Below are positions 2,772 to 40,700 of a DNA stretch of 64,000 bases, piece by piece (the first letter of the stretch is position 1; each line of letters begins with the position of its first letter). Source of the stretch: an uncultured Bacilli bacterium (GTDB lineage: Bacteria; Bacillota_I; Bacilli_A; RFN20; CAG-826); assembly GCA_944358895.1 (NCBI GenBank), contig CALVSB010000003.1:22868-86867 (forward strand), given 5' to 3'. The position numbers and the translations under genes are program-made. The notes under the pieces are model-generated. The model was not told where the DNA came from. It did not search any database and saw only the letters and a list, made by a program, of their open reading frames with translations.

Positions 2772-2831
2772 TTTGTGTCAACCGAACTTTTACAAAACCT
2801 CTTGATTGCTATATAAGGATTTTTTCTATAC

Positions 2832-15511: not shown

Positions 15512-16894
15512 TTAATCATCAGCATCAACAATTTTCCAATAGCCAGCTTTGTTGGATCCGACTCTGACAATCAAGGACGACTTCCTGAATTTTTTCATTG
15601 CTTTCTGAACAGTCGACAGGGAAACATTGGCAACCTCCGAAATTTCATCTTGGGTCGACCTTGGATTTTCCCGAATCGCAAACAAAATCTTCATCTCGGT
15701 TTTGCTTAGCCGATCAGCAATCTTATCCATCTCATCCTTGAACGAGTGCTTCCAGTTGTAGGGAATCGTAACGACAATGCAGTCTTCGCCAATCTTAAAT
15801 GCCTTCCGGCCGAAATAAGAAACAATAAGCGGATTTCCTTTGCCGGTTCTTTCGCTTAGATGGGTGGCCAGAAAAATAGACGATAGTTCTTCATTGACGG
15901 GAACGCTCCGGCCGTTATAGAAGCCTTCGACCGTTTGGCTCGGGGCCAGGGACGAGAAGGATGTTATTTCGACGCGGTCGTCGAAGAACGTGATCATCGG
16001 GGCCGTCCGCCGGAGCCATGAGTTATGAATGAAGGCATTTTTCACTGCCTCGTTGAAACAATCTTGGTTGAAAAGAGGAACGTCCGTCCGGATGCCGGTA
16101 TGGACGTTCTCCACCGCTTTTGGCATGTTGATGGTGTCGGAGTAATCGATGATGCGGTCAATGACCGAAACAAGGCTTTGATTTCCAAATTCCTTAACCG
16201 AAAACAATTTGCTTGCCTTATCTGATCCCGAAAAGATGGCAACTCGAACGGGGATCTCGCCGTTATCTGCTAGAAAGCAGGCCAGCATGTTGTACTTGCC
16301 GTCCGGGCAAAACAAATGCATGTTCACCTTGAAAGTGGCGTCGTTGAAAAGAAGGCCTTTCCCAAGGTAATAGGTTTTGAGTTGGTTGAACGTGAGATCT
16401 TGGACGGGCGACTCGGTATTCACCATCGTCGGATAGCCCCGGAGCAAAACGTTCCAGAGGAGTCCTTCCCTTTCCGGATATTTCTCGAGGGAAGCGATGC
16501 TCGAGCCAATGCGCGAATACCTTATTTTGTTAAAGGCCGTCGGGACCGTTTTGGCGCTCGGAATAACCAAGGCGACCACACGTTTGCCATTCATGGTAAC
16601 TTCTTGGAAACGAAAGGCAATCGATGGCTTTAGATTTCGGGCCAAGTAGTTCTGAAGCGGTTCGCTTTTATAATGTCCAAACGGGTTTACGGATGTGCCT
16701 ACGACCTCATGCGTTTTATCGTCGATGCCCCAAACGAGGTAGCCGTAATCTTTGCCTACGATGGCCGCCGAGTTCGACAAAGCCGAAATGTAGTGGCCGA
16801 TTCTCTCTTCTTCGAACCAATCGACCTTAAATTCAAACCACTCCTCTTCGTCTGTTCTGCTGAGGAGGTCAGAAATTACATCAACCAAATTCAT
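15512..16894 (-). CDS. AlbA_2 (divergent AAA / Schlafen-type) domain protein with C-terminal winged-helix HTH; putative transcriptional regulator
   Basis: N-terminus: EEEWFEFKVDW..IGHYISALSNSAAIVGKDYGYLVWGIDDKTHEVVGT. C-terminus: LSKTEMKILFAIRENPRSTQDEISEVANVSLSTVQKAMKKF. The gene is AT-richer than its surroundings. Confidence 0.65.
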   Translation of the reverse strand: MNLVDVISDLLSRTDEEEWFEFKVDWFEEERIGHYISALSNSAAIVGKDYGYLVWGIDDKTHEVVGTSVNPFGHYKSEPLQNYLARNLKPSIAFRFQEVTMNGKRVVALVIPSAKTVPTAFNKIRYSRIGSSIASLEKYPEREGLLWNVLLRGYPTMVNTESPVQDLTFNQLKTYYLGKGLLFNDATFKVNMHLFCPDGKYNMLACFLADNGEIPVRVAIFSGSDKASKLFSVKEFGNQSLVSVIDRIIDYSDTINMPKAVENVHTGIRTDVPLFNQDCFNEAVKNAFIHNSWLRRTAPMITFFDDRVEITSFSSLAPSQTVEGFYNGRSVPVNEELSSIFLATHLSERTGKGNPLIVSYFGRKAFKIGEDCIVVTIPYNWKHSFKDEMDKIADRLSKTEMKILFAIRENPRSTQDEISEVANVSLSTVQKAMKKFRKSSLIVRVGSNKAGYWKIVDADD

Positions 16895-21817: not shown

Positions 21818-21836
21818 CTTTCTATCCTCTTTAGAA

Positions 21837-22286
21837 TCAGACCGCGAGGTGGGCGCGATCGACGTAACGACGTTCCAATTCGACTTTCTTCTTTTTCCCT
21901 TTGATGACTAGAGCCAGCTTCACGCTTTCCCCGTCGGCATCCTCGAGGAGGCCAATCAATTCGTTTTCCCCTTCGAAGGGGTGGCTCAAGTGAAGATAGC
22001 ATTTCTTTCCGATGGCCCTTTCGAGCTTCTCGACGGGAATCGGCTTCTCGGCCCCAAGGGAGCTGACGTCCAACGTGTAAGGGCCATCGAAAGGATCGAT
22101 CGGATCGACGATGGCATCGACGAGGCCGCTGGCCTCTACGATGTTTTCGAGGGAAATGGGCTCCTCGCGATCGATGACGACCTCGAGGGTGGCGGGATTT
22201 TTCTTCAGGCAGAGCGAATAAAGCTCATAGCCTTTTTCCCGGAGGGCCGAAGCAAGTTTCGACCGCAGTTCTTCTTCCTTTTCGAT
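21837..22286 (-). CDS. rimP: Ribosome maturation factor RimP (non-canonical ATC start proposed)
   Basis: My translation upstream of the listed TTG-start ORF gives IEKEEELRSKLASALREKGYELYSLCLKKNPATLEVVIDREEPISLENIVEASGLVDAIVDPIDPFDGPYTLDVSSLGAEKP, a full RimP N-domain. AGGAGG at 22294-22299 lies 7 nt before the ATC at 22284-22286. Confidence 0.7.
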   Translation of the reverse strand: MEKEEELRSKLASALREKGYELYSLCLKKNPATLEVVIDREEPISLENIVEASGLVDAIVDPIDPFDGPYTLDVSSLGAEKPIPVEKLERAIGKKCYLHLSHPFEGENELIGLLEDADGESVKLALVIKGKKKKVELERRYVDRAHLAV

Positions 22287-22590
22287 AGCCTTTCCTCCTA
22301 AGAAAAGGCGGCCGCTTTCGCGGTCGCCTGACCTTTAAAAGCATGTAGCAGAGCCCTTCCGGGATCTTCTGCCGTCGTTATCTTAGCAACCGCCTGCCCA
22401 TCTTACAAGGGCCAAGCAACGCAAACACCGGCCGTTTTATCGAACCCTGCGATGAGAAAAACGTCGGTCGCTGCTTGAATATTTCTTCTTTGATTGGATA
22501 AACGCGCTTTCCAAAGCCCCTCTTTCCAAGGGGCAAGGCCGCCCAGGGGCACGGAAAGAGGGGGTTTCGCATACGGTGATTATGCCTGGT
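22287..22590 (-). promoter_or_regulatory. Long structured 5' leader of the rimP operon with terminator-like hairpin abutting the Shine-Dalgarno (candidate attenuator / rimP-leader-type element)
   Basis: Minus strand GGCGACCGC-GAAA-GCGGCCGCC (plus-strand 22307-22328) then UUUUCUU (22300-22306) then AGGAGG. Further upstream an 11-bp perfect inverted repeat CCCCTCTTTCC / GGAAAGAGGGG (22517-22527 / 22553-22563). Confidence 0.5.
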
Positions 22591-22623
22591 CGGCCCATTT
22601 GTAACTAACGTCAATGAATGGGT

Positions 22624-23880
22624 CTATCGATATGTGGACAGCCATCGCGGATCAACCGGGTTTTCCTTGATGAACTCCTCGAAGGCGGTCCTCAGGAGGT
22701 AAGGCTCGCGCCTGAGCCTCGCGGCAAGTTTGAGAAGGATGGGCCGATTGGCCACGAGGAACCTCCTCACGTTTGCGGAGATGGGAAGAAGAAGCTCGCC
22801 GAAGGGTTGCTTGGTCTGCCTCACGAAGTCGTCGCTGACATCGTTGCCGTTGAAGGTCATTCCGACGCCCAAGGAACCGGTATGGAGATAACCATCTGTC
22901 GCGGATTCGAGGGCGATGGCGTAATCTACCGCATAGTTGCCGTTGGCCATCCCGAGGGCAAGTTCGGCCCCAAGGGGCCCGGCAAGGAGGGTCGCGATGG
23001 CTCCCGGCCGCCGCCGGGGATGGAAGCGTAGGCAATCGAGGGAACGGATCGAGAGAAAGCCGACCGTACCTTCCTCCACCGTCTCGGAAACCAAGGCTTT
23101 CGCAGCAGCGGCCGCGGCTTTTTCAAGGAGGACGGCCTCGCTTTCCTTCTCATCATCGATTTTCGAACGAAGGCCATAGAAGGCTTCGACGAAATCGTCG
23201 ATGGTCACTTCCTTCCCACCTCTATCGACCGCGGCCATCACGGCTTCGTTGGCAAAGGAACGCGCCTTCGCGCAGGTCGAGACGAGGCCAAGGCCGGCCA
23301 GGTCTTTTTTGTTGAGGCCATCCCCTCCCGGGAGCCCCCGGGCGATCTTCAAAATGATCTCGGCCCCGGTCGAGCGGTCCGGGGGTTCGATGTTGAGGAA
23401 ATGGTCGACCCGCCCTTTGCGGTAGAAGCTTTCGGGAATGTCATCGAGGCTATCGGCCGTCATGATGAAATAGATCCCCCGCCCCGCGCTCGCGTCGAGA
23501 ATCCCCTGGATGGCCCCGATGTTCTCCTGTTCGTCGCTTTCGTCGCTGACCTTGTCGAAATCGTCGAGGAGAAGGCAAGAAGGGGCCGCGGCCGCGGCCT
23601 CCTCGACCGCTTGCTGCAGCTTTTCGATGTAGTCCTCCGACGGGCCAAGGACAAAGGAGGGGCGGAGGCTCGCTTTCATGAAAGCTTTCGCAAAGGCCGT
23701 CTTCCCGTTCCCCGGGGCCCCGTAGAGGAAGAGGCCGGAAGGGACTTTCGCCCCCAGTTCCGCCGCTTGTTTATCCTTTCCCATCGTGCAAAGGATGGCC
23801 TTCAGCTCCCGCTTGACCTCTTCGTAGCCGAGGAGATCGTCGAAGGCATGTTCGTAGTTGTCCATGTTTTCTCCTTTCAT
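22624..23880 (-). CDS. Soluble FtsH-like AAA+ protein with degenerate (zinc-site-less) M41-like C-terminal domain
   Basis: FDDLLGYEEVKRELK..GLFLYGAPGNGKTAFAKAF (Walker A), CLLLDDFD (Walker B with D for E), RKGRVD. The HEAGH-equivalent position reads AAAAK (EKAAAAAAKALVSE). No TM segment. ATGA overlap with the upstream gene. Confidence 0.65.
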   Translation of the reverse strand: MKGENMDNYEHAFDDLLGYEEVKRELKAILCTMGKDKQAAELGAKVPSGLFLYGAPGNGKTAFAKAFMKASLRPSFVLGPSEDYIEKLQQAVEEAAAAAPSCLLLDDFDKVSDESDEQENIGAIQGILDASAGRGIYFIMTADSLDDIPESFYRKGRVDHFLNIEPPDRSTGAEIILKIARGLPGGDGLNKKDLAGLGLVSTCAKARSFANEAVMAAVDRGGKEVTIDDFVEAFYGLRSKIDDEKESEAVLLEKAAAAAAKALVSETVEEGTVGFLSIRSLDCLRFHPRRRPGAIATLLAGPLGAELALGMANGNYAVDYAIALESATDGYLHTGSLGVGMTFNGNDVSDDFVRQTKQPFGELLLPISANVRRFLVANRPILLKLAARLRREPYLLRTAFEEFIKENPVDPRWLSTYR

Positions 23881-25160
23881 AGTTTGTTCCCGTTAAGGAT
23901 GGGTTCCTCCAAGAGGGCGAAGGACGAGACGGCCGCCCGGTTGATTTCCAACCGGTGCCCGAGGGCCTCGATTTCGCTTCTTAAGAGGTAATGATTCTTG
24001 TTTAGAAGGGCCGCTGCCTCTTCTAGGTAAGGGGCGTTCTCCACAAAGAGCCGCCGGACGAAGGAGGAGGCCGCTTCGAGGAAGCTGCCCAGGCGGAGGC
24101 GGGCGGGCACGACCTTCAATTCCTCCTCGATATGGAAATCGAGGTTGGCCAGGCCCATCGCGCCCCGCTCGAAATAGAGCTTCTCGAGGAGGTCATAGGC
24201 CCTTTCAAGGTCATTGCCGGCCCCGCTGGCCGTTTTCGGGAGGAAGGTCTCGACGGCGATTTTCCCGCCGAGGAGGACGAGGATGCGGCCAAAGGGAGAA
24301 AGGGCCTCGGGCCTTAGGAGGCGGACGTTCCCATACTCCTTCCAGGTGGAGGCAAAACCCACGATCCCCGGGGCGAGGGCCTCGGCGACGAGGAGGTGGC
24401 CCGCCTCGTGGTAGCTGACCTCAAGCCGGCGTTCCTCCCCGTCAGGCGCATCCTCCTCATCGAGGTTTTTTTCGTTGATGGCTTCAACCAAATATCGCAT
24501 CGCAACTTCCTTCGCATTGGAAAGGAGAGCGCGCCTGGCCGCTTCATTGACGGCCTCTTTGGCCTCGGCCGGGGTAAGGGAATAGACGAGTCCCTCAAGG
24601 TCGCTGATCTTCACGTCTTTTCCGCATTTGACCGTCGCGGCAAAGGCCTTTATGAGAGCGGCTCCGTCCTCGTGGGAGACCTCCTCGAGCCGGAAAAAGA
24701 AGTCGAACCGCCCTTTTCGGATGAGGCTACGGGGAACCTTGTAGGTCGAATTCATGGTAGCGACGACAAAGACGTCCTCCGGCGAGGAGGCGTCGATCAA
24801 GGACTGGAGGTGGCCGTACCTCGTGTTCCGGCCTTCCGAGCCATAGGCCTTGTCGAGATCGTCAAAGAGGATGACGCTCGGGGCCTTTTCCTTGGCCTCG
24901 GCAAAGAGGGCGGCGAGGTCATCGAGCCGAGGGTCGCCCGGCCGGACGAGAAAGGAAGTACGTCCGCTCGCCTCCATAAAGGCCTTCGCGAAGGAAGTCT
25001 TCCCGGTTCCGGGACGGCCGAGGAAGAGAAGGCCCTTAGGCGGGATCCCGCCCATGGCCCGGTAGAGATCCCCTTCCTTCAATGTTCGGAGGATTTTCCC
25101 CATTTGCTTCTTGAGGGAGGCACGGCCCACCAGGCCGTTGAAAGCATCCATCGTATCCAT
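23877..25160 (-). CDS. Soluble FtsH-like AAA+ / M41 metalloprotease homolog with intact HEAGH
   Basis: FNGLVGRASLKKQ..GLLFLGRPGTGKTSFAKAF, VILFDDLD, VATMNSTYKVPRSLIRKGRFD, SYHEAGHLLVAEAL, LLGGKIAVE, GAGNDLERA. Start at the ATG at 25160 (MDTMDAF) behind GGAAAGGA. No N-terminal TM region. Confidence 0.7.
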   Translation of the reverse strand: MDTMDAFNGLVGRASLKKQMGKILRTLKEGDLYRAMGGIPPKGLLFLGRPGTGKTSFAKAFMEASGRTSFLVRPGDPRLDDLAALFAEAKEKAPSVILFDDLDKAYGSEGRNTRYGHLQSLIDASSPEDVFVVATMNSTYKVPRSLIRKGRFDFFFRLEEVSHEDGAALIKAFAATVKCGKDVKISDLEGLVYSLTPAEAKEAVNEAARRALLSNAKEVAMRYLVEAINEKNLDEEDAPDGEERRLEVSYHEAGHLLVAEALAPGIVGFASTWKEYGNVRLLRPEALSPFGRILVLLGGKIAVETFLPKTASGAGNDLERAYDLLEKLYFERGAMGLANLDFHIEEELKVVPARLRLGSFLEAASSFVRRLFVENAPYLEEAAALLNKNHYLLRSEIEALGHRLEINRAAVSSFALLEEPILNGNKL

Positions 25161-25298
25161 CTGCGTCCTTTCCGGGCCTCGGGAAACGCCCAACGCCCTT
25201 TTCCCAAGCCTTTCGGGTCTTGGCCATCGGATTTTAAAGAGGGCAGGCCACAAGAAAAAAGCGCTTTACACGAAAGGTGGATTTATTCAACAAATCGT

Positions 25299-25856
25299 TT
25301 ATTTGGCCGGGCTTTTGCCAAGGGAAACGAAGCAATCCTCGTCGTGGGAGAAGACGATGCCGATGGCTTGAAGATAGGAATAGACGATCGTCGGCCCGAC
25401 GAACTTCATGCCGCGCTTTTTTAAGTCGGAAGAGATCTTTTCCGCGAGGGGCGAAGTAGTCTTTCCCCGCTCGATGATCGGACGAGGCGCAAAAGAGGAA
25501 AGATAGGCGGCAAAGCTTCCCCATTCCCTTTCGATCGAGAGGTAGGCCCGGGCGTTAATGACGGCCGCCCGGATCTTGGCCTCGCTTCTTACGATGCGGG
25601 GATTGGAAAGGAGGGAGGCGATCTTCGCTTCGTCATAACGTGCGACAGTCTCCGGGTCGAAGCCGTCGAAGGCCTCTTCGAAGGCCTTTCGCTTATGGAG
25701 GATCGTCCGCCAGCTTAGTCCGGCCTGGAAGCCTTCGAGGATAAGCATTTCGAAAAGCTTCTTCTCTTCTTTGAGAGGGCGGCCCCACTCCTCGTCGTGA
25801 TATTCGACATAGAGAGGGTCGTCGAGGGGCACCCAGCGGCAGCGTTTTTGATCCAT
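25299..25856 (-). CDS. tag: DNA-3-methyladenine glycosylase I
   Basis: RCRWVPLDDPLYVEYHDEEWGRP, LILEGFQAGLSW, FVGPTIVYSYLQAIG. Confidence 0.9.
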   Translation of the reverse strand: MDQKRCRWVPLDDPLYVEYHDEEWGRPLKEEKKLFEMLILEGFQAGLSWRTILHKRKAFEEAFDGFDPETVARYDEAKIASLLSNPRIVRSEAKIRAAVINARAYLSIEREWGSFAAYLSSFAPRPIIERGKTTSPLAEKISSDLKKRGMKFVGPTIVYSYLQAIGIVFSHDEDCFVSLGKSPAK

Positions 25857-25950: not shown

Positions 25951-27393
25951 ATGACTTCCTATCTCGATGCAGCCCGAAAAGCCGCCCCGCTTGTGCAAGT
26001 CCGGGGCAAATCCTACTTCCAAAACGGACAGGTCCGCCTCGTATCCTTCGACGGCGCCCATGCCGAGCTCGAGTCCTACGGGACCGAGACTTATCACGTA
26101 AATCTTTACTTCGAGGGCAAGAAGCTGACGAGCTATTCCTGCACCTGCCCCTTCGACCGGGGAATGTGCAAGCACGTCGTCGCTTCCCTTTACCTCCTCG
26201 AAATGCAATCTAAGGCCGAGCCTGCTTCCATGGTCGTCGAGGCCCCGCGGCCCGGCACCTCGACCCTCCAGGCTTACCTGGCCTATTTCGAGGAACTCGG
26301 CAAATCCCACCGGGAGCCGATGGCCTACGATGTCCGGCGGCTCGGGACGCGGAATCTCTCGCCCGAGGATACGGAAACGATTCTCACGAAGACGCTAGAG
26401 CTCACGATCGAGAATTCTTCCTCCTACGGCGGGGAGATCGGCTTCTATGACAATCTCGTCCGTCTTCTAGCCGTCGACGAGGCGACCACTGGGGCAAAAT
26501 GCCTCGCAAAAGCCCTGCCAAATCTCCAAAAAGCGGCTTTTAGGCCCCTTTTCCGCCTCTTCCTACGGGATAACCAGGCAGCCGCGACGGCCTACCAAAA
26601 GGCGGCTCTTCCCTTCCTGAAGGACCTCGAGATCCAGACGACCGGGGTCTATGGAAGGATGTCCCTCGAGCTCGGGGAACTCCGCCGCCTCGTCGGTGGT
26701 ATTTTGCCCTTCGCGGCCAAGTGCTACCCGGGAAGCGCCATCCTCACGATGAAGGAAGCGAGGAAGCGGGGACTGGTCGAAGAGACGAAGGCCATCTTCC
26801 TCGAGGTCCTTCGAAGCGGGACCTTCGACTACGACGCCTTCTGCTTCGTCCTCCCGAGCCTCGAGAAGGAGGAACGCTCCGCTATCCTCCGGGAGGCCAT
26901 TCTGGCCCAGGACGATTTCAAGGGGTATCTAAGGATCCGCTCGCTCCTAAGCAAAGACGAGGTGAAGGACATCCTCCCCCGCCTCTCCGCCACGGCCGAA
27001 GCCAAGGGCTATGCCCCCTCCTTCGACTTCTATGAGTTTGGGGCCTCGCCGCGGGGAACTTTGGCCTCGGTCGAGGTCGACGATCTCGTCTATATTCTCC
27101 CGGCCCTCGCTCCCGACGTCCACGAGCGGGCCTTGAAACGGATCATCACCCGGATCGAGAGCGAGCTTAACAAGAAATCTGACGTCAAGGAAAAGCTGGT
27201 TCCCGTCGTCCGGGCCCTCTCTCTCAGCCATTCCCCGCTCCTCACCCACTACCTCAAAGACCCCCGCCTTCTCAAGGCAGCCGAGCGCTATCCGCAGATC
27301 GAGGGGGCTTTGGCCTATACCTACGTCAGCCTCGGCCATCTAGACGAGCACGGCGTTCATCCTTACGGAGGAAAGAGCGATGTTTCTAACTAA
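25951..27393 (+). CDS. SWIM zinc-finger protein (YwqB-like partner of the SNF2 helicase)
   Basis: SYSCTCPFDRGMCKHVVASLYLL is a CxC..CxH SWIM motif. 14-nt overlap with the downstream SNF2 gene. Confidence 0.75.
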   Translation: MTSYLDAARKAAPLVQVRGKSYFQNGQVRLVSFDGAHAELESYGTETYHVNLYFEGKKLTSYSCTCPFDRGMCKHVVASLYLLEMQSKAEPASMVVEAPRPGTSTLQAYLAYFEELGKSHREPMAYDVRRLGTRNLSPEDTETILTKTLELTIENSSSYGGEIGFYDNLVRLLAVDEATTGAKCLAKALPNLQKAAFRPLFRLFLRDNQAAATAYQKAALPFLKDLEIQTTGVYGRMSLELGELRRLVGGILPFAAKCYPGSAILTMKEARKRGLVEETKAIFLEVLRSGTFDYDAFCFVLPSLEKEERSAILREAILAQDDFKGYLRIRSLLSKDEVKDILPRLSATAEAKGYAPSFDFYEFGASPRGTLASVEVDDLVYILPALAPDVHERALKRIITRIESELNKKSDVKEKLVPVVRALSLSHSPLLTHYLKDPRLLKAAERYPQIEGALAYTYVSLGHLDEHGVHPYGGKSDVSN

Positions 27394-30300
27394 CGCGACG
27401 TCCCTCAACCTGCTCGACGAGGCAGGCAGAAGCGTCTACGAAGCTTTGAACGAAGGTCTTTACGACCTTTATTTCCGCTACGACAAGGAACGGGAAACCC
27501 TTTCCTATTATGCTTTCGTGAAGCACGATACCCCATCGCTCCCGCCTATCTTGGTCGTCCGCCTCTCGCCCGAGGGGCCGCTTCAGGATTCCTACGATCA
27601 GGACTATCCCTATGCCTCGAGCTACGTCCGGGGCTTCCTCAGCTACCTTTTCCTCCACGAAAAGGAGCTTTCGCCCGAAGACGTGAAGGAACTATATGGA
27701 AGCGAATATGAGGAACTAGACCGTCTCTCCAAGCTCGACCCGGCCTCCTACAAGGCTCATAGAGAACTCCGGGATGCCTTCCTTTCCTTGACCGACCAGA
27801 TGGCCGCCCCCTCGGTCTCCTCCATCGCCGACCAGGCGAAGGAAAGCCAGAAAGGGCTTGCCACCGCCGTCGTCTCCTTTTCCTATTACGACGAGGGACG
27901 CTATGCCGTCACCCTCTCGATTTACCAAGACGGGAAGAAACTCGCCACGCCATCGACTAGGCCCTTCCTTCGGAAGGTCCTCCTCGACGGCACCTATTTC
28001 TCCCGCGACCGCCGGGTCCCTACGAAGAAGGACGAATACGAACCCCCTTATGGAGACGTTCTCGCCCTCCTCGCCAAAAGCGACGAGCAGCTCTACCAAA
28101 GCGACACCAACCTCTATGGCTATAGCGCCTCCTACTACCTCGTCGACGACGAGGCGTTCATCGAATGCCTCTTCCTCCTCGAGGGGCATGGAGTCGCCAT
28201 CGAAGGGCGGGTCTACCAAGTCCCTTCCCCGATCGAAGGTTACGTCAGCTTCGACGAGGACGGGCAGCTCCTCCTATCGCCCTCCCTCCCCCGGAAAGGG
28301 ACGAAGTGCGAGATCGCCGGCGACAAGCTGGCCTATTGGGCCGACGGCAAGATGGTTCTCGCCTCCTTCCCGAGCCCCAATAGCGCCTCCCTCTACGCCT
28401 TCTTCCTGAAGCACGGGAAAAAGGCCTACATGGAAGTGGCCGACCTCTTCCCGAAGCGGGTTGTACCGAAGCTTGGGAAGGACCTATTGACCGCGGAGAA
28501 GGCGAATGGCAGCAAGAGGACCCTATCCATTTCCCTCTATGTTTCCCTCATGGACGACCAAAGTCTAGGTTTCCAGACCCTGTATCTCTTGAACCGCGAG
28601 AGCGTCGCCCCGGCCCTCTTCGACGAGAACCCCCTCGGGGCCAGCCTCCGCCAGGCGTATCTCGAAGCCCTCAAGGCGGCCGGCGGCCTCGAAAACGGCA
28701 CGGCCGAGGATCCTTTGCCGTTCCTTCAGGCCAATCTCACCGAGCTCGGGAAACTCTCCGACCTCCATATCGACGAGGCCCTCATGGGGGTCAAGGTCGT
28801 CAAGAGCATCTCCCTCCGGGTCCAAGGCCGCTACGAGAACGACTGGCTCTCCCTCAGCATGCACGCGAACGACTTCACGAGCGACGAGCTAAGGGCCGTC
28901 TTCGAGGCCTGCCGGAAGAAAAAGAAGTTCGTCCTTCTAGGCGGCAAGGCCGTCATCATGAGCGACGAAGTCAAGAAAGCGGCCGAGCTGGCCGCCTCCT
29001 TCGGGCTCGACGAAAGCTTAGAAAACGCCGAGCTCCCCCTCTACGACGCCTTCTCGCTCCCGGCCCGGGGCGAAGGCTTCGTCGACTTCCAGTTCGACTC
29101 GAAGCTCGGCGAGGCTCTCGAAGCCGTCGCCTCCTACAAGAACAGCCAGGTCGATCTAGATCCTGAAATCCGTTCTTCGATGCGGGACTACCAGTACGAA
29201 GCCGTCCAGTGGCTCACCGTCCTCGACCGCTACGGCCTTTCGGGCATCCTGGCCGACGACATGGGCTTAGGCAAGACGCTCGAGACGATCGCCTATATCT
29301 CGACCCTCCACGATGAGCGGCCGATCCTCGTCGTCTCCCCGAAGAGCCTCGTCTACAACTGGGCCGTCGAGTTCCGGAGGTGGTTCCCTTCCTGCTACGT
29401 CGAGACGATCGACGGGCCGAGGAAGAACCGGGAGGGGGTCATCGCGAAGATCTATCCCCGGAGCATTCCCTCGGTCTATCTCATCTCCTACGACACCCTT
29501 CGGATCGACATCGACCTCCTGAAGGACAAGAAGTTCGCCCTGGCCGTCCTCGACGAGGGGCAGTTCATCAAGAACAGCTCGACGAAGAAGGCCCACGCGG
29601 CCAAGGGGATCGAGGCCGCGAGGCGCCTCGTCCTCACCGGCACCCCGATCGAGAACGACGTGACCGACCTCTGGTCGATCTTCGACTTCCTGATGCCGGG
29701 GTATCTCGGTACTGAAAGTAGCTTCGAGCGCTCATACGTTGACGATGGCCCGGACTCCAAGATGAAGAAGATCGAGCTCTTGGTCCGGCCCTTCATTCTT
29801 AGGAGGACCAAGGAAGACGTCCTTTCCTCCCTGCCGCCGAAAACGACGATCCAGGTCCCGGTCGAGATGGAAGAGGACGAACGGGCTCTCTACGAGTCCT
29901 GGCTCGAGAAGACCAGGGAGTTGGTAAGCGGAGGCGAAGGCCCGATGGCCCTCCTCAAGATGCTGACGCGCCTAAGGCAGATCTGCATCGACCCCTCGAC
30001 CTTCTTAGAGGGGATGGAGACGGTCTCGAGCAAGCTGCAGCTGGCCATCATGATGATCGAGAATGCGGTTCAAAACGGCCACAAGGCTCTCGTCTTCTCT
30101 TCCTTCGTCAAGGTCCTCGACCACCTCGAGGCCCTCCTCGCAGAGAAGGGGATCCGCTCGATGAAGATCACCGGGCAGACCGACGGGAAGGAACGGATTG
30201 CCATCGCTTCCTCCTTTAACGAAAGTGAGGACACCAAGGTTCTTCTCATCTCCCTCAAGGCCGGGGGAACCGGGCTTAACCTCCAAGGGGCCGATACGGT

Positions 30301-30538
30301 CATCCACCTCGATCCTTGGTGGAACGTCGCGGCCGAGGAACAGGCCAGCGACCGGGCCCACCGCCTCGGCCAGCTCCGCCCGGTCACCGTCTACAAGCTC
30401 ATCGACCACGACACGGTCGAGGAGAAGGTCGTGGCCCTCCAGGAAAAAAAGAAGAGCCTCTACGAGGCCTTCATCAAGTCGGGCGAGGAAGGTGTCTCTT
30501 CCCTCACGGTCGAGGACATCAAGTTCATCCTTTCTTGA
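27380..30538 (+). CDS. SNF2-family helicase/translocase (YwqA/RapA-like)
   Basis: LADDMGLGKTLETIA, AVLDEGQFIKN, LTGTPIENDVTDLWSIFDFLMPG, LISLKAGGTGLNLQGADTVIHLDPWWNVAAEEQASDRAHRLGQ. Confidence 0.9.
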   Translation: MFLTNATSLNLLDEAGRSVYEALNEGLYDLYFRYDKERETLSYYAFVKHDTPSLPPILVVRLSPEGPLQDSYDQDYPYASSYVRGFLSYLFLHEKELSPEDVKELYGSEYEELDRLSKLDPASYKAHRELRDAFLSLTDQMAAPSVSSIADQAKESQKGLATAVVSFSYYDEGRYAVTLSIYQDGKKLATPSTRPFLRKVLLDGTYFSRDRRVPTKKDEYEPPYGDVLALLAKSDEQLYQSDTNLYGYSASYYLVDDEAFIECLFLLEGHGVAIEGRVYQVPSPIEGYVSFDEDGQLLLSPSLPRKGTKCEIAGDKLAYWADGKMVLASFPSPNSASLYAFFLKHGKKAYMEVADLFPKRVVPKLGKDLLTAEKANGSKRTLSISLYVSLMDDQSLGFQTLYLLNRESVAPALFDENPLGASLRQAYLEALKAAGGLENGTAEDPLPFLQANLTELGKLSDLHIDEALMGVKVVKSISLRVQGRYENDWLSLSMHANDFTSDELRAVFEACRKKKKFVLLGGKAVIMSDEVKKAAELAASFGLDESLENAELPLYDAFSLPARGEGFVDFQFDSKLGEALEAVASYKNSQVDLDPEIRSSMRDYQYEAVQWLTVLDRYGLSGILADDMGLGKTLETIAYISTLHDERPILVVSPKSLVYNWAVEFRRWFPSCYVETIDGPRKNREGVIAKIYPRSIPSVYLISYDTLRIDIDLLKDKKFALAVLDEGQFIKNSSTKKAHAAKGIEAARRLVLTGTPIENDVTDLWSIFDFLMPGYLGTESSFERSYVDDGPDSKMKKIELLVRPFILRRTKEDVLSSLPPKTTIQVPVEMEEDERALYESWLEKTRELVSGGEGPMALLKMLTRLRQICIDPSTFLEGMETVSSKLQLAIMMIENAVQNGHKALVFSSFVKVLDHLEALLAEKGIRSMKITGQTDGKERIAIASSFNESEDTKVLLISLKAGGTGLNLQGADTVIHLDPWWNVAAEEQASDRAHRLGQLRPVTVYKLIDHDTVEEKVVALQEKKKSLYEAFIKSGEEGVSSLTVEDIKFILS

Positions 30539-34138: not shown

Positions 34139-36637
34139 TTAGGCCTTGTAGAGCATGAGCCACCCGCCATCCGGGATCCCGAGGGTGAAGAAGGGGTCGC
34201 CGGAATAGGAGACGTAGCCGATGTCGTAGCTAACGCCTCCGACCGTCAAGGTGTACTCGTCCGTCCCGACGGCGACGAAGGCTTCGGCCGCCGTCCCGTC
34301 GTAGATGATCGTCCCCTCCGCGGTGAACTCGAGGGTGTGAGAGCCGTCTTTCGTCGCCCATTGGCCGATGAATTCTTCGGGGAATTCGAAGGTCGGGGCG
34401 GCCTCCGGGGTCTCTTGGAGGGTCAGCACGACGTCGATGTCGTAATTCTCGTCGTAGAGGCGGATCGTGCCCTTGGCTTCCGAGTACTCGAGGGTGTATT
34501 CGAGGCCTTCAAGCGTCGTCGTGGCCTTCATGTTGATGAAAACCTGCCGGAACTCAAGCGGTTCCTCGAAGGCTTTTCCGTCGAGGGTGGCCGTCGCATC
34601 GGCATTGATCACGAGGGTGTGGCTAAGGCCGCTATCTTCGTCGACCCCGGTCCAGGTTCCGACGTATTTCGGATCGATGGCCGGTTCGACCGGCTCTTCG
34701 ACGGCCTTCTGGAGGTCGACGTAGAGGGCGCCGGTTTCGTCGGTCAGGCGGAAGGTTCCGGTCCCGGGGCGGTAAGTGAGGAGGTAGACATTCTCCCCGA
34801 CCGTCGCTTCGACGCGGTAGCCGCCGGGCGGGGCCACCGTTTCTTCCCAAGCCCCGAGGACGGCTTCGACCCCGTTGATGGTGATCTTGCCGTCTTCGGT
34901 CACGACCACCTTGTAAGGGTCGCCGGTTCCTTCGTCGTTTCCTTCCCAGGAGCCGACGATTTCCGCCGGCATCGCGACTGGCGCCTCGATCTTGAGATTC
35001 GCGTAGACATCGTCGTTCGAGAGGTTTATCTGCTCGGGGCCGTAGCTATCCGCCGGCATGTAGGTCAGATCGTAGGAGGCGGCCCCGACCTTGAGGGTTC
35101 CGTGGTAGTCGCCCCAGTCGTCGACGGTGAGGCCGAGGAGCTCGGCCGCTTCCCCGTTCAGGGTGATGCCGTCGTCCCCGATGACGAGGGTATAGGCATC
35201 GAGGGTGTAGGTGTCGACCCCCGTCCAGGTATTCTTCATCGCCTCCGGCATCGGGACGGTCGGGATGGTGAACGTATAGTCGATGGTCGCCGTGTCGAAG
35301 TCGACGATGTCGACGCTGACACGCTCGCTATAGAAGGTGCCGGCCGTGTCGAACATCCGCGTCGTGTAGGCAAAGTTGTCGACTTTTCCCGCCTCGTCGA
35401 GGTGGATGGTCAAATCCTTGACCGAGCCGTAATAGGCGAGGAAGGCAACGACACTTTCGTCCTCGAGGAAGAGGGAGGCCGCGCTAAGGGAAGAAGGGCC
35501 ATCCCGGTAGACATAGGTTCCTGCCTCGTCGGTCGGGACGAACATTTCCGGAGCCACGATGTTCGGGAAAGGCATCGGGTAGTATTCCCCGTCGTAGGCC
35601 TCGCCTCTGACCGGTTCCCCGTCAACGATCTCGAACTCGTAGTACTTGCCGTCGTCATAGAGGGCATAGCCCCAGTCGTTGATGCTCGTGATGCCGCCGT
35701 CATTGGCAAAGAGGGTGGCATTGTAGGTGACGGTGCTCCGGCTATGGGCCACTTCGATGTCGTCCCGGCCAAGCGGGGTCATCGTCTTCTCGTAGACGAA
35801 GCCGGTGGTGTCGCTAGGCCCGGAAAGGGCCAAAGTCCACGTATCGAGGGCTTTGCCGATGGCGTCATGGTACGCTTCGGTTTCGAAGGGGGCAGGTACT
35901 TCCCGGTCCCCGGTCGTGACCGCGAGCTCGAGTTTCATCTCCATCGGGTCGCCTCGTTCGTCGGTCGCCCCGAGGGTAATGCTCAAGGTATCGCCGAGCC
36001 GGGCGACCGTCGCCGTATCGAAGGTCCCGACCGCGTAGTGCATGAGGGGAATCGAGAAAGCCTGGACCTTGGCCGCGGAGACCGCATAGCCGTTCTCCCC
36101 AAGGGTCAAATCGGCGGCTTCGAGCTTGCCGAAGGGATTGTAGAAATAAGTGTCCCACGGGGCTTCGACCGTCTGGCTTTCGTTGACGTAAAGGGGTGAG
36201 GACAGGATCTTGTTGTCGACGTCCCGCATGTAGGCGGTCGTCGTCCCGTCTTCGTCTTTCCGGTAAAGATCGGCCGCGTAATAGATCCCGTATTCGTCGT
36301 AGTCGTAGAAATCAAGGGAGCTCGGGCCGAGGAAAATCTCGATGTTCGTCGTGACCCCGTAGCTAGTAAGCGTCCCCTTCCCTTCGAATGAGGACGAGGC
36401 GAGCGTCGCGAGGTAAGCCTCGTCGATGGCCGTCGCCGGAAGAGGCGGCTCGCTTACAGAAGAAGAGGAAGAAGATTCGCTTGAGGAACTGCTTCCAGGG
36501 ATTTCCCCTTGGCTCGAGGAAGAACCGGTCTCCTCTGCAGCCGAGGATGATGGCAGGCTCGAGGTCGTGGTACCACCGCAGCTACCGAGCAAAAAAGCGG
36601 CTCCGATCAAGGGGAGCGCTAGGGTCTTTCGTTTCAT
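34139..36637 (-). CDS. Large surface lipoprotein (832 aa) with four ~85-aa C-terminal repeats
   Basis: Start at the ATG at 36637 behind AGGAGGG. MKRKTLALPLIGAAFLLGSCGG lipobox, Ser-rich linker. Repeated module G-x-W-x-G..D....L.I..DG.I.L.G (e.g. TINGVEAVL, TLNGEAAEL, TLDGKAFEE, IIYDGTAAE). Confidence 0.65.
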   Translation of the reverse strand: MKRKTLALPLIGAAFLLGSCGGTTTSSLPSSSAAEETGSSSSQGEIPGSSSSSESSSSSSVSEPPLPATAIDEAYLATLASSSFEGKGTLTSYGVTTNIEIFLGPSSLDFYDYDEYGIYYAADLYRKDEDGTTTAYMRDVDNKILSSPLYVNESQTVEAPWDTYFYNPFGKLEAADLTLGENGYAVSAAKVQAFSIPLMHYAVGTFDTATVARLGDTLSITLGATDERGDPMEMKLELAVTTGDREVPAPFETEAYHDAIGKALDTWTLALSGPSDTTGFVYEKTMTPLGRDDIEVAHSRSTVTYNATLFANDGGITSINDWGYALYDDGKYYEFEIVDGEPVRGEAYDGEYYPMPFPNIVAPEMFVPTDEAGTYVYRDGPSSLSAASLFLEDESVVAFLAYYGSVKDLTIHLDEAGKVDNFAYTTRMFDTAGTFYSERVSVDIVDFDTATIDYTFTIPTVPMPEAMKNTWTGVDTYTLDAYTLVIGDDGITLNGEAAELLGLTVDDWGDYHGTLKVGAASYDLTYMPADSYGPEQINLSNDDVYANLKIEAPVAMPAEIVGSWEGNDEGTGDPYKVVVTEDGKITINGVEAVLGAWEETVAPPGGYRVEATVGENVYLLTYRPGTGTFRLTDETGALYVDLQKAVEEPVEPAIDPKYVGTWTGVDEDSGLSHTLVINADATATLDGKAFEEPLEFRQVFINMKATTTLEGLEYTLEYSEAKGTIRLYDENYDIDVVLTLQETPEAAPTFEFPEEFIGQWATKDGSHTLEFTAEGTIIYDGTAAEAFVAVGTDEYTLTVGGVSYDIGYVSYSGDPFFTLGIPDGGWLMLYKA

Positions 36638-36808
36638 GGACAACCCTCCTTTGCCCGGAAAGATACATGAGTTCAGCAAATTGGCAAGCATTAGTTTGTT
36701 ATAGAAACGAATCGTCAACGAAAGCGGCCATCCAAGAAGCAGCTGATAACTAACTGTCAAAATGGAAAAACATTCGGCCTTGCCTAGCCAAACGGCTATT
36801 CGCTTTTT

Positions 36809-37948: not shown

Positions 37949-38003
37949 GAGCCTTCCTCGAACAAACGTATTTTAAAGGTATGATCCTTCACTGGGGATA
38001 TTG

Positions 38004-38039
38004 AAAAAAAAGACCCGGCAACCGTCATGGCTCCGGGTC
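38004..38039 (-). terminator. Intrinsic terminator after the lipoprotein gene
   Basis: Minus strand GACCCGG-14 nt-CCGGGUC followed by UUUUUUUU (plus-strand arms 38012-38018 and 38033-38039). Confidence 0.7.
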
Positions 38040-38056
38040 CTTCATTCGCTCAACAA

Positions 38057-38809: not shown

Positions 38810-38829
38810 GGCCAAACTATACACGAAAA

Positions 38830-39200
38830 GGAGGGGCGTGCGGGGGTTTCTCCGGGTGGCCGCCCTTACCTTATAGCTGCCCCCAAGGATGCAATGCCAT
38901 CCGCGGAGGGTTAATTGTTAGCTTCCCAATGGCCTATGCCGGCCACCTTGCTCCTTTTTTCCAGGTAGCCGCCCGGGAACGGGAGAGCCTAGAGTCAACC
39001 GCTTGGTCCTGGAAAAGAAAACAGGCCGGATGGGGAATCAGCCTTAGATATGCCCTGCCCTGTCGGTTTCGATGCATTGCACGCCCCTCCAGGGTTACTC
39101 GGAACTCTTGAAGAAAAAATATCTTCGGTCTTTTCAACCCTCTATGCATTTCTGGTTTCCTTTCTTCCGGCCGCCCATTGAAAGCAGACCAGTGACAGGA
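38830..39200. ncRNA. Candidate structured RNA or degraded element (unclassified, strand unresolved)
   Basis: GC-rich noncoding stretch with nested complementarity: GGTGGCCG 38855-38862 / CGGCCACC 38940-38947; GGATG 38887-38891 / CATCC 38898-38902; CCAGG 38961-38965 / CCTGG 39008-39012; CCCG-GGAA-CGGG 38972-38983; ACAGG 39021-39025 / CCTGT 39059-39063. Confidence 0.3.
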
Positions 39201-39201
39201 T

Positions 39202-40651: not shown

Positions 40652-40663
40652 TGTGTTCCATTT

Positions 40664-40700
40664 CCAACCACAATATACATTCTTATGGTTGTATTTGCAA
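40664..40700 (-). promoter_or_regulatory. Sigma-70-type promoter of abiEi-abiEii with an inverted repeat spanning the -10 box
   Basis: Minus strand TTGCAA (40695-40700), 17 nt, TATATT (40672-40677). Inverted repeat CAACCA 40665-40670 / TGGTTG 40686-40691 brackets the -10. Confidence 0.5.

What the first reader, a model, noticed from the sequence alone, without database searches (positions are those of the whole stretch)
22624..25160. ATGA-coupled pair of membrane-less FtsH-like proteins: one with HEAGH, one with the zinc site erased, both lacking Walker-B Glu and pore-1 loop
Both proteins begin exactly where the cytosolic AAA module of FtsH begins (F-x-x-L/V-x-G ... GLLFLGRPGTGKT / GLFLYGAPGNGKT). 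They have no TM or periplasmic region. The upstream protein keeps M41 signatures (SYHEAGHLLVAE, LLGGKIAVE, GAGNDLERA). In the downstream protein the equivalent segment is EKAAAAAAKALVSE, so both His and the Glu are lost. In both, Walker B reads hhhhDD(F/L)D instead of hhhhDE. The stretch between Walker A and Walker B is about 7 residues shorter than in E. coli FtsH. It lacks the (E)MFVGVGA pore-1 loop (RPGDPRLDDLAALF / GPSEDYIEKLQQAV instead). The downstream protein also has D for the sensor-1 Asn (MTAD vs ATMN). This is therefore a probable active/pseudo-protease heteromer whose ATPase rings look unfit for processive threading. It recalls FtsH/FtsHi pairs of plastids but is soluble and bacterial. 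I know of no described bacterial system with this layout. It could be a nucleotide-gated site-specific protease or a regulatory switch.
Basis: partly seen in the sequence, partly recalled or inferred. Interest (0 to 1): 0.7.

Follow-up and report, generated by a model that had tools for sequence, protein, structure and literature searches.

The report
Soluble FtsH-like protease and pseudoprotease pair
Two adjacent genes in an uncultured gut bacterium encode membrane-free relatives of the FtsH protease, one with an intact zinc site and one without; both lack the parts needed to thread proteins, and they belong to a large undescribed family found mostly in mobile-element and defence-type gene neighbourhoods.

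Summary
A (window 23880-25160, minus strand, 427 aa) and B (22624-23865, 413 aa) are paralogues (32% identity). Both model as the whole cytosolic part of FtsH. Neither has a membrane segment.

- Both have Walker B DD instead of DE.
- Both have a 4-residue stump where pore loop 1 should be, a shortened pore-2 region, and no DGF motif.
- Both keep Walker A and both arginine fingers.
- A keeps HEAGH and the Asp ligand. B has AAAAK there.

New context:
- A and B belong to a large unnamed family of about 420-aa soluble "mini-FtsH" proteins: 131 of 137 have DD and 134 of 137 have HExxH.
- These are usually single genes in prophage ends, a plasmid and defence-type islands. A wHTH-WYL-WCX (CapW/BrxR-like) regulator lies nearby in 20 of 33 well-flanked loci.
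- Active plus zinc-site-less pairs arose independently at least twice.
- The A-B cassette is absent from a sister species.
- It exists as two alleles about 60% identical on a 91-99% identical backbone.

Best reading (confidence about 0.45): a non-threading, nucleotide-gated heteromeric zinc protease acting in a genetic-conflict or defence role. Heteromer formation, ATP handling and target are untested.

One correction: B most likely starts at the SD-preceded ATG at 23865, not at the ATGA.

The parts
23880..25160 (-). Gene A: soluble FtsH-like protein, 427 aa, AAA module plus intact M41-type zinc protease domain (stop codon at 23877-23879)
   Evidence: ORF. An AAAGGA ribosome-binding site lies 5 nt before the ATG at 25160, and the exact 427-aa product is on record. 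Pfam gives AAA at 5e-17 and Peptidase_M41 at 1.3e-7. The AF2 model has pLDDT 86.6. Foldseek gives TM 0.77 to FtsH 3kds_F.
22624..23865 (-). Gene B: paralogue of A, 413 aa, AAA module plus M41-like fold with the zinc site erased (an alternative start at 23880 gives 418 aa)
   Evidence: ORF. An AAAGGAG ribosome-binding site precedes the ATG at 23865, and orthologues are called at 413 aa. B is 32% identical to A, E = 6e-48. Pfam finds AAA only. The AF2 model has pLDDT 84.3. Foldseek gives TM 0.72 to 3kds_F.
24996..25019 (-). A Walker A, GRPGTGKT
24924..24944 (-). A stump of pore loop 1 (RPGDPRL): 4 residues between strand beta2 and helix alpha2, where FtsH has about 12 including MFVGVGA
   Evidence: Alignment and secondary structure of the model.
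24852..24875 (-). A Walker B, VILFDDLD (Asp where the catalytic Glu should be)
24708..24761 (-). A sensor-1 Asn (ATMN, 24750-24761) and both arginine fingers (RKGR, 24708-24719)
   Evidence: The residues equivalent to R148 and R151 are invariant across the alignment.
24396..24410 (-). A zinc-binding and catalytic motif HEAGH. The third ligand, Asp317 in GAGNDLERA, is at 24210-24212.
23698..23721 (-). B Walker A, GAPGNGKT
23626..23643 (-). B stump of pore loop 1 (PSEDYI). The Tyr aligns with the FtsH pore Phe.
23554..23577 (-). B Walker B, CLLLDDFD
23410..23463 (-). B sensor-1 position MTAD (Asp in this allele, Asn in the other allele class) and arginine fingers RKGR
23098..23112 (-). B erased zinc site: AAAAK aligned to the HEAGH of A (H to A, E to A, H to K)
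23863..23884 (-). A-B junction: ctATGAAAGGAGAAAACATGG. It holds the stop of A, the Shine-Dalgarno site of B and the probable start of B.
   Evidence: same layout in orthologous locus L001.
22470..25434 (-). Extent of the hypervariable cassette. It is 60-71% nucleotide-identical to the other allele class, while the flanks are 82-99% identical. It includes the region upstream of A and a hairpin (22513-22567) after B.
   Evidence: Sliding identity and hairpin I13.

Best explanation
A and B are a lineage-specific tandem duplicate of a "mini-FtsH". This is a soluble protein of about 420 aa made only of the cytosolic AAA and M41 domains of FtsH.

Shown:
- Both have the FtsH fold.
- Both keep the nucleotide-binding and inter-subunit residues: Walker A, the Walker B Asp and two arginine fingers.
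- Both have lost the elements needed for ATP-driven threading: the catalytic Glu, pore loop 1, part of pore loop 2 and the DGF signalling motif.
- A keeps all zinc-site residues. B has none of the HExxH residues.
- The cassette is accessory and fast-evolving, and it exists as two deep alleles.
- Its single-gene relatives sit in prophage ends, a plasmid and nuclease- and restriction-rich islands, very often next to a CapW/BrxR-type WYL regulator.

Inferred:
- A and B co-assemble into an FtsH-like ring through their protease and AAA domains.
- Nucleotide binding, rather than processive hydrolysis, controls assembly or opening of the ring.
- A cuts a specific accessible target rather than unfolding substrates.
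- B is a non-catalytic sensing or regulatory subunit.
- The most likely role is in genetic conflict, that is, phage or mobile-element defence, possibly by abortive infection.
For: Fold and motifs.

Family-wide signature:
- Walker B is DD in 131 of 137 members and HExxH is present in 134 of 137.
- GVGA is deleted in 125 of 125.
- More than 120 representatives (50%-identity clusters) of 400-450 aa appear among the top 150 hits.

Co-expression: a 12-nt gap, with the Shine-Dalgarno site of B overlapping the end of A, conserved in both allele classes.

Retained function:
- ORFs are intact in four loci. dN/dS is 0.18-0.39 for A and 0.24-0.39 for B between diverged pairs.
- A and B were replaced together as one cassette.

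Accessory and conflict-like behaviour:
- The cassette is absent between tag and rimP in a sister species whose IF-2 is 88% identical.
- IF-2, NusA and SNF2 are 99, 96 and 94% identical where A and B are 62 and 59%.
- The allele tree disagrees with the flanks. Window versus L110 has flanks 98% identical but A at 61% and B at 57%. L001 versus L110 has flanks 91-96% identical but A at 86% and B at 81%.

Context of relatives:
- Neighbouring genes include holin and endolysin, GmrSD, Mrr, a KAP NTPase, RNase_T, DUF2779 (Cas4-like), PD-(D/E)XK nucleases and serine recombinases.
- The same WYL-WCX family is present in 41 of 91 loci, and in 20 of 33 loci with at least 3 kb on both sides. It is often within about 100 nt on the same strand.
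- Such regulators are reported to accompany many anti-phage systems (PMC9122601, PMC11662680).

Recurrent pairs: active plus zinc-site-less copies occur in L114, L115 and L150. In bootstrap trees, A+B of the window lineage are monophyletic in 98 of 100 replicates, the L115 pair are sisters in 90 of 100, and all pseudo copies together are monophyletic in 0 of 100.

Ring formation: cytosolic FtsH fragments form hexamers on their own, and the protease domain selects partners (review PMC9020784).
Against: - No experiment and no multimer model was available. Heteromer formation is inferred from paralogy, gene coupling and joint replacement only.
- Asp in place of the Walker B Glu may still allow slow hydrolysis.
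- Most family members keep the pore Phe-Val, and B keeps Tyr, so some substrate contact in a central channel is not excluded.
- The window cassette has no WYL regulator, DUF2779 or other known defence gene beside it.
- PADLOC gives only weak, AAA-limited hits to IetA.
- Defence-island context is circumstantial. One relative lies among plasmid replication genes.
- dN/dS in the closest pair is high (A 0.54, B 0.82 at dS 0.03-0.06). A truncated B variant (P0124, 244 aa) exists. Relaxed constraint in some strains is therefore possible.
Confidence: 0.45

Rival explanations
1. A true soluble quality-control protease. The ring still hydrolyses ATP, with Asp acting as a weak catalytic base, and threads substrates through a narrowed pore using the retained aromatic residue. 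B is simply a second ATPase subunit, as in heteromeric m-AAA or thylakoid FtsH.
For: Walker A, the Walker B Asp, the sensor-1 Asn (in A and in the other B allele) and both arginine fingers are conserved. Phe is conserved at the pore position in 109 of 125 family members, and B has Tyr there. The zinc site of A is intact.
Against: - Four separate translocation elements are lost together across the family: the catalytic Glu, the GVGA of pore loop 1, part of pore loop 2 and the GF of the DGF motif.
- In A the aromatic residue itself is gone: Arg in the window and in P0003, Trp in P0002.
- In the model the loop is only 4 residues long.
- An accessory, hypervariable distribution centred on mobile elements is not what a housekeeping protease shows.
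Confidence: 0.15
2. A regulator-cleaving protease of mobile elements, working like ImmA, IrrE or CapP. It would cut a repressor, for example the neighbouring WYL protein, in response to a signal, so its role would be control of element induction or of defence-gene expression rather than defence itself. The window pair would be a stranded copy.
For: There is strong linkage to one WYL-WCX regulator family, often immediately adjacent on the same strand. In L003 the gene lies near HTH and S24 repressor-type genes. CapH/CapP-type protease and repressor pairs are known (PMC11662680).
Against: The window cassette and about 40% of well-flanked loci have no WYL gene. The distance and side of the WYL gene vary from 12 nt to 6 kb, upstream or downstream. 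Known CapW/BrxR regulators are released by ssDNA binding and are not reported to need a protease.
Confidence: 0.15
3. Remnant of an old insertion that is drifting towards loss. The unusual motifs would reflect decay rather than a new mechanism.
For: dN/dS is raised relative to the flanks, up to 0.82 for B in the closest comparison. A truncated B variant, P0124, exists. The catalytic residues of B are lost.
Against: - The ORFs are full length in four loci spanning both allele classes, and dN/dS is 0.18-0.39 over larger distances.
- The same "defects" (DD, loop deletion) are conserved in more than 120 diverse family members together with an intact HExxH. They are a family signature and not decay.
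- Both models are confident.
Confidence: 0.12
4. A housekeeping regulatory protease tied to the neighbouring rimP-nusA-infB-rbfA operon, for example turnover of a ribosome-maturation or transcription factor.
For: The pair lies directly upstream of rimP on the same strand, with no strong terminator-like site called.
Against: The sister species has tag next to rimP with no cassette. The cassette is 60-71% identical where the operon is 88-99% identical. A hairpin and a conserved leader of about 180 nt separate B from rimP. Relatives elsewhere are never next to this operon.
Confidence: 0.06

Closest known systems
FtsH (MEROPS M41, classical AAA clade; e.g. T. maritima 3kds, A. aeolicus 4ww0)
   Same: The AAA large and lid domains plus the M41 protease fold match over the whole length (TM 0.72-0.77). 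Walker A, the arginine fingers and, in A, HExxH plus the Asp ligand are shared.
   Different: There are no transmembrane helices and no periplasmic domain. Walker B is DD. Pore loop 1 is reduced to a stump, pore loop 2 is shortened and the DGF motif is lost. The score against the NCBIfam FtsH model is 108 (A) and 63 (B) bits against a cut-off of 600. The genes are accessory and hypervariable and are not essential housekeeping genes.
Plastid FtsH12/FtsHi/Ycf2 import motor and other FtsH heteromers (yeast Yta10/12, thylakoid type A/B)
   Same: They combine paralogous FtsH-type subunits, some with an erased zinc site. FtsHi chains appear among the structural hits.
   Different: Those complexes are membrane-anchored, eukaryotic-organellar and working ATP-driven motors. 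Here the proteins are soluble and bacterial, and the motor elements are missing. The pseudo-protease copy arose independently, by a local duplication.
Single-gene soluble mini-FtsH family (e.g. WP_042258768.1 'AAA family ATPase' on Butyrivibrio proteoclasticus plasmid pCY186; PHROG 30773, function unknown)
   Same: Same length, DD Walker B, GVGA deletion, shortened pore-2 region and, for A, an intact HEAGH. Identity to A is 28-36%.
   Different: They are usually single genes, most keep Phe-Val at the pore position, and they are commonly linked to a WYL-WCX regulator. The window lineage has a duplicated pair, 3 further residues deleted, no aromatic residue in A and no WYL gene.
IetAS anti-phage system (AAA ATPase IetA plus serine protease IetS)
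   Same: It combines a classical-clade AAA ATPase with a protease in a defence setting. There are weak PADLOC and NCBIfam hits to IetA/IteA.
   Different: The hits cover only the AAA module (E = 1e-8 to 1e-11, far below the NCBIfam cut-off of 510 bits). The protease here is a fused M41 zinc domain, not a separate subtilisin-like protein.
AAA modules that bind but hardly hydrolyse ATP and act as assembly scaffolds (NSF D2; recalled from memory, not tested here)
   Same: Walker A and inter-subunit contacts are kept while the catalytic Glu is absent.
   Different: NSF D2 is one tier of a two-tier motor. Here the only AAA tier has this make-up.

Membership tests
FtsH (TIGR01241 / M41 AAA protease) | N-terminal transmembrane helices and periplasmic (FtsH_ext) domain | tested here: not met
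   Both proteins start at the AAA module. The maximum hydropathy is 1.36 (A) and 1.54 (B), against 2.55 for FtsH. There is no PF06480 hit.
FtsH (TIGR01241 / M41 AAA protease) | Score above the curated family cut-off | tested here: not met
   TIGR01241 gives 107.6 bits (A) and 63.1 bits (B) against a cut-off of 600.
FtsH (TIGR01241 / M41 AAA protease) | Walker B hhhhDE with catalytic Glu | tested here: not met
   A has VILFDD and B has CLLLDD, aligned to the IFIDE of FtsH, p97 and VAT.
FtsH (TIGR01241 / M41 AAA protease) | Pore loop 1 aromatic-hydrophobic-Gly (MFVG) | tested here: not met
   A has DPRL and B has EDYI, with GVGA deleted. The loop is 4 residues long in the model.
FtsH (TIGR01241 / M41 AAA protease) | Second region of homology with two arginine fingers, and Walker A | tested here: met
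   Both have RKGR and GxPGxGKT, invariant in the alignment.
FtsH (TIGR01241 / M41 AAA protease) | HExxH plus downstream Asp zinc ligand | tested here: inconclusive
   Met in A (HEAGH, D317). Not met in B (AAAAK; the Asp is kept in this allele and lost in the other).
FtsH (TIGR01241 / M41 AAA protease) | AAA plus M41 fold | tested here: met
   Foldseek against 3kds_F gives TM 0.77 (A) and 0.72 (B) over about 425 columns.
Soluble mini-FtsH family (defined here) | About 400-450 aa, no membrane part, Walker B DD, GVGA deletion, shortened pore-2 region | tested here: met
   A and B share all of these with 125-137 family members. NJ trees place A+B inside the family in 83 of 100 replicates, next to P0004 and P0185.
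Soluble mini-FtsH family (defined here) | Intact HExxH | tested here: inconclusive
   Met in A and not met in B. 134 of 137 family members have it.
FtsH/FtsHi-type heteromeric ring | Physical co-assembly of active and inactive paralogues | not testable with these tools
   Only single-chain prediction was available. Gene coupling and joint allele replacement are indirect support.
IetAS defence system | IetA-type ATPase above cut-off with adjacent IetS serine protease | tested here: not met
   NF042959 gives 38 and 33 bits against a cut-off of 510. The PADLOC IetA hits are weak and limited to the AAA module. There is no serine protease gene nearby.
CapW/BrxR-regulated defence gene | Adjacent wHTH-WYL-WCX regulator | tested here: not met
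   There is no WYL homologue in the window or in L001. It is met for many single-gene relatives: 41 of 91 loci.
Anti-phage defence system (any) | Protection against phage when expressed | not testable with these tools
   No experiment was possible. Only context and evolutionary behaviour are available.

The most novel reading that the evidence does not exclude
Mini-FtsH proteins are a new class of anti-phage or anti-mobile-element immune effector: soluble FtsH-derived rings that do not thread substrates. They would use bound nucleotide as an assembly or licensing signal, and on infection they would cleave a specific host or phage protein. In lineages where the gene duplicated, the zinc-site-less copy would have become the sensing subunit of a heteromeric ring, a solution reached independently several times. 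The two deep alleles at this locus would be kept by selection from different phages.
Probability: 0.3. Interest if true: 0.8.

Novelty: new variant of a known kind. Interest (0 to 1): 0.66.

Why it matters
FtsH is described as the one membrane-anchored AAA+ protease, and it works by ATP-driven threading. This family keeps the FtsH ring architecture and zinc site. It has dropped the membrane anchor and every element of the threading motor, yet it is conserved and diverse.

If it is active, it shows what an AAA-protease ring can do without translocation: nucleotide-licensed, site-specific cleavage.

Three further observations raise its interest:
- its linkage to CapW/BrxR-type regulators and nuclease-rich islands, which makes it a candidate for an unrecognised immune gene family in gut and rumen Firmicutes;
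- the repeated, independent appearance of active plus pseudo-protease pairs, a bacterial parallel to plastid FtsH/FtsHi and a natural experiment on why asymmetric rings are favoured;
- the two-allele structure on a nearly identical backbone, which gives a direct handle for population-genetic tests of balancing selection.

Tried and rejected
- **Known AAA families.** I tested SpoVK, EccA, CdvC, PAN, Cdc48 and IteA with NCBIfam. All scored far below their cut-offs and matched only the AAA module.
- **PADLOC.** Only weak IetA hits.
- **PHROGs.** Only phrog_30773, of unknown function.
- **Rfam.** Nothing in the 64-kb window.
- **GTDB genome scan with the B alignment.** No orthologue was found, only distant Comamonadaceae AAA proteins. 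The scan therefore gave neither the taxonomic spread of the pair nor a species name.
- **Cultured-phage records.** No close mini-FtsH. The hits are host FtsH or jumbo-phage and giant-virus FtsH.
- **Flanking repeats or mobile-element scars around the cassette.** None convincing.
- **Domain-localised hypervariability between the alleles.** Divergence is spread evenly.
- **Functional link to the neighbouring SWIM and SNF2 genes.** They are 91-98% conserved where A and B are about 60%, and they are not homologous to the helicase of the L114 and L115 systems. PADLOC hits to DpdE and ZorD reflect the generic SNF2 core.
- **Literature.** Searches for soluble or truncated bacterial FtsH, M41 in defence and DUF2779 returned nothing relevant.
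- **Taxonomy.** A look-up of Candidatus Enteromonas failed.


Full report
**What is there**

On the minus strand lie two ORFs.
- Gene A runs from the ATG at 25160 to the TGA at 23877-23879. An AAAGGA ribosome-binding site lies 5 nt upstream of the start, and the exact 427-aa product is on record.
- Gene B ends at 22624.
However, the sequence reads ctATGAAAGGAGAAAACATGG: a consensus Shine-Dalgarno site precedes a second in-frame ATG at 23865 (MDNYEHAF).
- The orthologous locus L001 has the same arrangement, and gene callers give 413 aa.
- The two genes are therefore tightly coupled, with B most likely starting 12 nt after the stop of A.

**Checking the observation**

Domain and membrane content:
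- Pfam finds AAA in both proteins. It finds a marginal Peptidase_M41 match only in A (32.1 bits, cut-off 29.9).
- Against NCBIfam, the best model is FtsH for A and CDC48 or FtsH (nearly tied) for B, but all scores are far below the cut-offs (108 and 63 bits against 600 for FtsH).
- Neither protein has a hydrophobic segment: the maximum 19-residue hydropathy is 1.36 and 1.54, against 2.55 for a real FtsH.
- Both N-termini align with the first residues of the FtsH AAA module.

ATPase motifs:
- phmmer alignments to p97 and VAT, and MAFFT alignments with three FtsH sequences, place VILFDDLD (A) and CLLLDDFD (B) on the Walker B IFIDEID. The catalytic Glu is therefore Asp in both.
- Spacing from Walker A to Walker B is 44 residues, against 51 in FtsH.
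- The loop between strand beta2 and helix alpha2 carries MFVGVGA in FtsH. It is PGDP in A and PSED in B, followed directly by the helix.
The pore-2 region is 7 residues shorter. The MDGF motif is reduced to a lone Asp. I know this motif, from memory, as the inter-subunit signalling motif of classical AAA proteases.
- Walker A and both arginine fingers (RKGR) are retained in A and B. The sensor-1 Asn is retained in A.
- B has Asp at sensor 1 in this allele, but Asn in the other allele class.

Zinc site:
- A has HEAGH and the Asp of GAGNDLERA.
- B has AAAAK at the aligned positions.

Paralogy and fold:
- A and B are 32% identical over 402 residues, E = 6e-48.
- AlphaFold2 models are confident (pLDDT 86.6 and 84.3).
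- Foldseek matches both over their whole length to the cytosolic part of FtsH: 3kds_F with TM 0.77 and 0.72. Chains of the plastid Ycf2-FtsHi motor are also among the hits.

**A family, not an oddity**

- Protein searches with A find three close groups (93%, 62% and 60% identity). Next come about thirty proteins of 410-446 aa at 27-36% identity, and only after that true FtsH, at E around 1e-26.
- An exhaustive search with B finds 42 proteins at E ≤ 1e-30. Among the best 150 cluster representatives, most are 400-450 aa.
- Of 137 family-sized members, 131 have Walker B DD, 2 have DE, and 134 have HExxH.
- All 125 members aligned lack GVGA, though 109 keep Phe at the pore position.
- I could not find this family named. 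A member on a Butyrivibrio plasmid is annotated only as "AAA family ATPase". The best PHROG has unknown function. PADLOC has only weak AAA-limited hits to IetA. Reviews of FtsH and of pseudo-metallopeptidases mention only membrane-anchored forms and plant FtsHi.

**Where the relatives live**

The relatives are nearly always single genes. Individual contexts include:
- the end of a prophage, between the holin and endolysin genes and a serine recombinase, together with a WYL-WCX regulator, an Mrr-type nuclease, RNase_T and a KAP NTPase (L028);
- a similar island with GmrSD, an HD protein, WYL, a KAP NTPase and two serine recombinases (L030);
- GmrSD, a metallophosphatase and DUF2779 (L009);
- HTH, S24, DnaB_C, WYL, PIF1 and transposase genes (L003);
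- plasmid replication genes together with WYL (L111).

In 91 loci clustered by all-against-all BLAST:
- One wHTH-WYL-WCX family occurs in 41 loci. It occurs in 20 of the 33 loci that have at least 3 kb on both sides. It is mostly on the same strand and often within about 100 nt.
- DUF2779 (Cas4-like) occurs in 11 loci.
- RNase_T, metallophosphatase, PD-(D/E)XK nuclease and serine recombinase families each occur in 6-7 loci.

Regulators of the CapW/BrxR type are reported to accompany many anti-phage systems and to respond to single-stranded DNA (PMC9122601, PMC11662680). This is circumstantial, but it points consistently to mobile-element accessory or defence regions.

**The window cassette is accessory and hypervariable**

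The host is an uncultured member of the Bacilli. Its nearest named IF-2 relatives are "Bacilli bacterium" and Candidatus Enteromonas genomes, at 74-78% identity.

Closely related contigs keep the gene order SNF2, SWIM, tag, A, B, rimP, nusA, ylxR, L7Ae, infB, rbfA. A sister species with 88% identical IF-2 has tag directly next to rimP, with no A-B cassette and no SWIM-SNF2 pair there.

| Gene (window vs L001) | Amino-acid identity |
|---|---|
| IF-2 | 99.4% |
| NusA | 95.9% |
| SNF2 | 93.5% |
| SWIM | 91% |
| Tag | 85% |
| A | 62% |
| B | 59% |

- Nucleotide identity falls from 82-99% to 60-71% sharply between about 25434 and 22470.
- The allele tree disagrees with the flanks:

| Comparison | Flank identity (SWIM, SNF2, NusA) | A | B |
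|---|---|---|---|
| Window vs L110 | 98% | 61% | 57% |
| L001 vs L110 | 91-96% | 86% | 81% |

- Two old allele classes are thus exchanged by recombination on a common backbone, and A and B move together.
- dN/dS is 0.18-0.39 for both genes over larger distances, against 0.04-0.24 for the flanks. In the closest pair it is higher (A 0.54, B 0.82 at dS 0.03-0.06).
- Both genes are therefore constrained, but less than their neighbours. One truncated B variant exists (P0124).
- No repeats or element scars flank the cassette. A hairpin (22513-22567) follows B.

**Pairs arose more than once**

Family members without HExxH are rare, but three were traced.
- P0311 (SYFNAGT in place of HEAGH) lies directly after an intact mini-FtsH in L114.
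- P0259 (AYYQAGK) overlaps the end of an intact copy by 8 nt in L115.
- Both pairs follow MoxR-like AAA_3 and DUF2201 genes and a large helicase. In L114 a WYL gene lies directly upstream.
- In L150 a third zinc-site-less copy, which also lacks the arginine-finger motif (not examined further), lies 1.2 kb after an intact one, with a WYL gene nearby.
- In neighbour-joining bootstraps, A and B of the window lineage form a clade in 98 of 100 replicates. The two L115 copies are sisters in 90 of 100. The pseudo copies never group together (0 of 100).
- The active plus pseudo arrangement therefore evolved independently at least twice. This argues that an asymmetric assembly is useful to this family.

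**How it most likely works**

Shown:
- the FtsH fold;
- retained nucleotide-binding and inter-subunit residues;
- loss of the threading apparatus;
- an intact zinc site in A only;
- gene coupling;
- joint replacement of A and B;
- accessory status.

Established knowledge:
- The Walker B Glu is the catalytic base of AAA ATPases.
- Pore-loop aromatic residues grip substrates.
- Cytosolic FtsH fragments hexamerise by themselves.
- The protease domain chooses partners in heteromeric FtsH (PMC9020784).

Inferred:
- A and B form a mixed ring.
- Nucleotide binding, not processive hydrolysis, controls assembly or gating.
- A makes limited, specific cuts.
- B serves as a non-catalytic sensor or regulator.
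- The biological role is in conflict with phages or other mobile elements.

I put about 0.45 on this package. Within it, the non-threading protease reading is more secure than the defence role.

**Rivals**

- A weakly hydrolysing quality-control protease (0.15).
- A regulator-cleaving protease of mobile elements, in the manner of CapP, ImmA or IrrE (0.15).
- A decaying remnant (0.12).
- A protease tied to the rimP-nusA-infB operon (0.06).

**Comparison and novelty**

It works like, and descends from, FtsH. It fails the membership tests that define FtsH: membrane anchor, DE, pore loop and family score. It resembles the FtsH/FtsHi idea, but it is soluble, bacterial, motor-less and independently derived. 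It is best filed as a new variant of a known kind. The family-level findings (an undescribed mini-FtsH family, the WYL linkage, convergent pseudo-protease partners and allelic hypervariability) go beyond the original finding.

Noticed in passing
L003, L007, L028, L030, L111, L114 and 35 further loci among L116-L195: One family of wHTH-WYL-WCX (CapW/BrxR-like) proteins of about 335 aa accompanies single-gene mini-FtsH genes. It is present in 41 of 91 loci, and in 20 of 33 loci with at least 3 kb on both sides. It is often within about 100 nt on the same strand, either upstream or downstream.
   Followed up: partly
L114 1-7287 and L115 2-6906: A conserved gene set: a large helicase, a MoxR-like AAA_3 ATPase, a DUF2201_N/DUF2201 protein, then an intact mini-FtsH followed by a zinc-site-less mini-FtsH. 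The MoxR and DUF2201 proteins are 54% and 48% identical between the two loci. This looks like a multi-gene system of unknown function.
   Followed up: partly
L150 6460-11764: A WYL gene and an intact mini-FtsH are followed, after one opposite-strand gene, by a second mini-FtsH copy. That copy has YTAGQ in place of HEAGH and also lacks the arginine-finger motif.
   Followed up: no
window 25951-30538: A SWIM zinc-finger protein (480 aa) and an SNF2 helicase with an SNF2_assoc domain (1052 aa) lie between DegV and tag. The sister species (L112) has DegV directly next to tag, so this pair is a second accessory insertion at the same spot. PADLOC hits to DpdE and ZorD cover the generic SNF2 core.
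   Followed up: partly
window 15512-16894: A Schlafen AlbA_2, HATPase_c_4 and winged-helix protein (460 aa) lies downstream of rbfA. It is also present in L001. In the sister species this position holds a tilS-like gene and truB. There is a weak PADLOC hit to candidate system PDC-S50.
   Followed up: no
window about 21830-22290: The rimP gene has no ATG start in frame. Gene callers in related contigs give only a 100-aa RimP_C product, although the reading frame continues upstream after an AGGAGG site. A non-canonical start is likely.
   Followed up: no
window 22513-22567: A hairpin with 15-nt arms and a 25-nt loop lies just after the stop of B, inside the hypervariable cassette. The conserved backbone resumes at about 22470, with a leader of about 180 nt before rimP.
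   Followed up: no
P0124 (a 244-aa protein on a contig of 57,270 bases): A truncated and partly frameshifted B variant of the second allele class. This suggests that the cassette is decaying in some strains.
   Followed up: no
window 2001-4000 and 36001-42000: G+C content drops to 0.45 and to about 0.52, against about 0.59-0.62 elsewhere. This may be foreign DNA.
   Followed up: no
L006, L009/L010, the P0005 contig and 8 further loci: A DUF2779 protein (Cas4-like nuclease, about 495 aa) is a recurrent neighbour of mini-FtsH. It occurs in 11 of 91 loci and is 42% identical between L006 and L009.
   Followed up: partly
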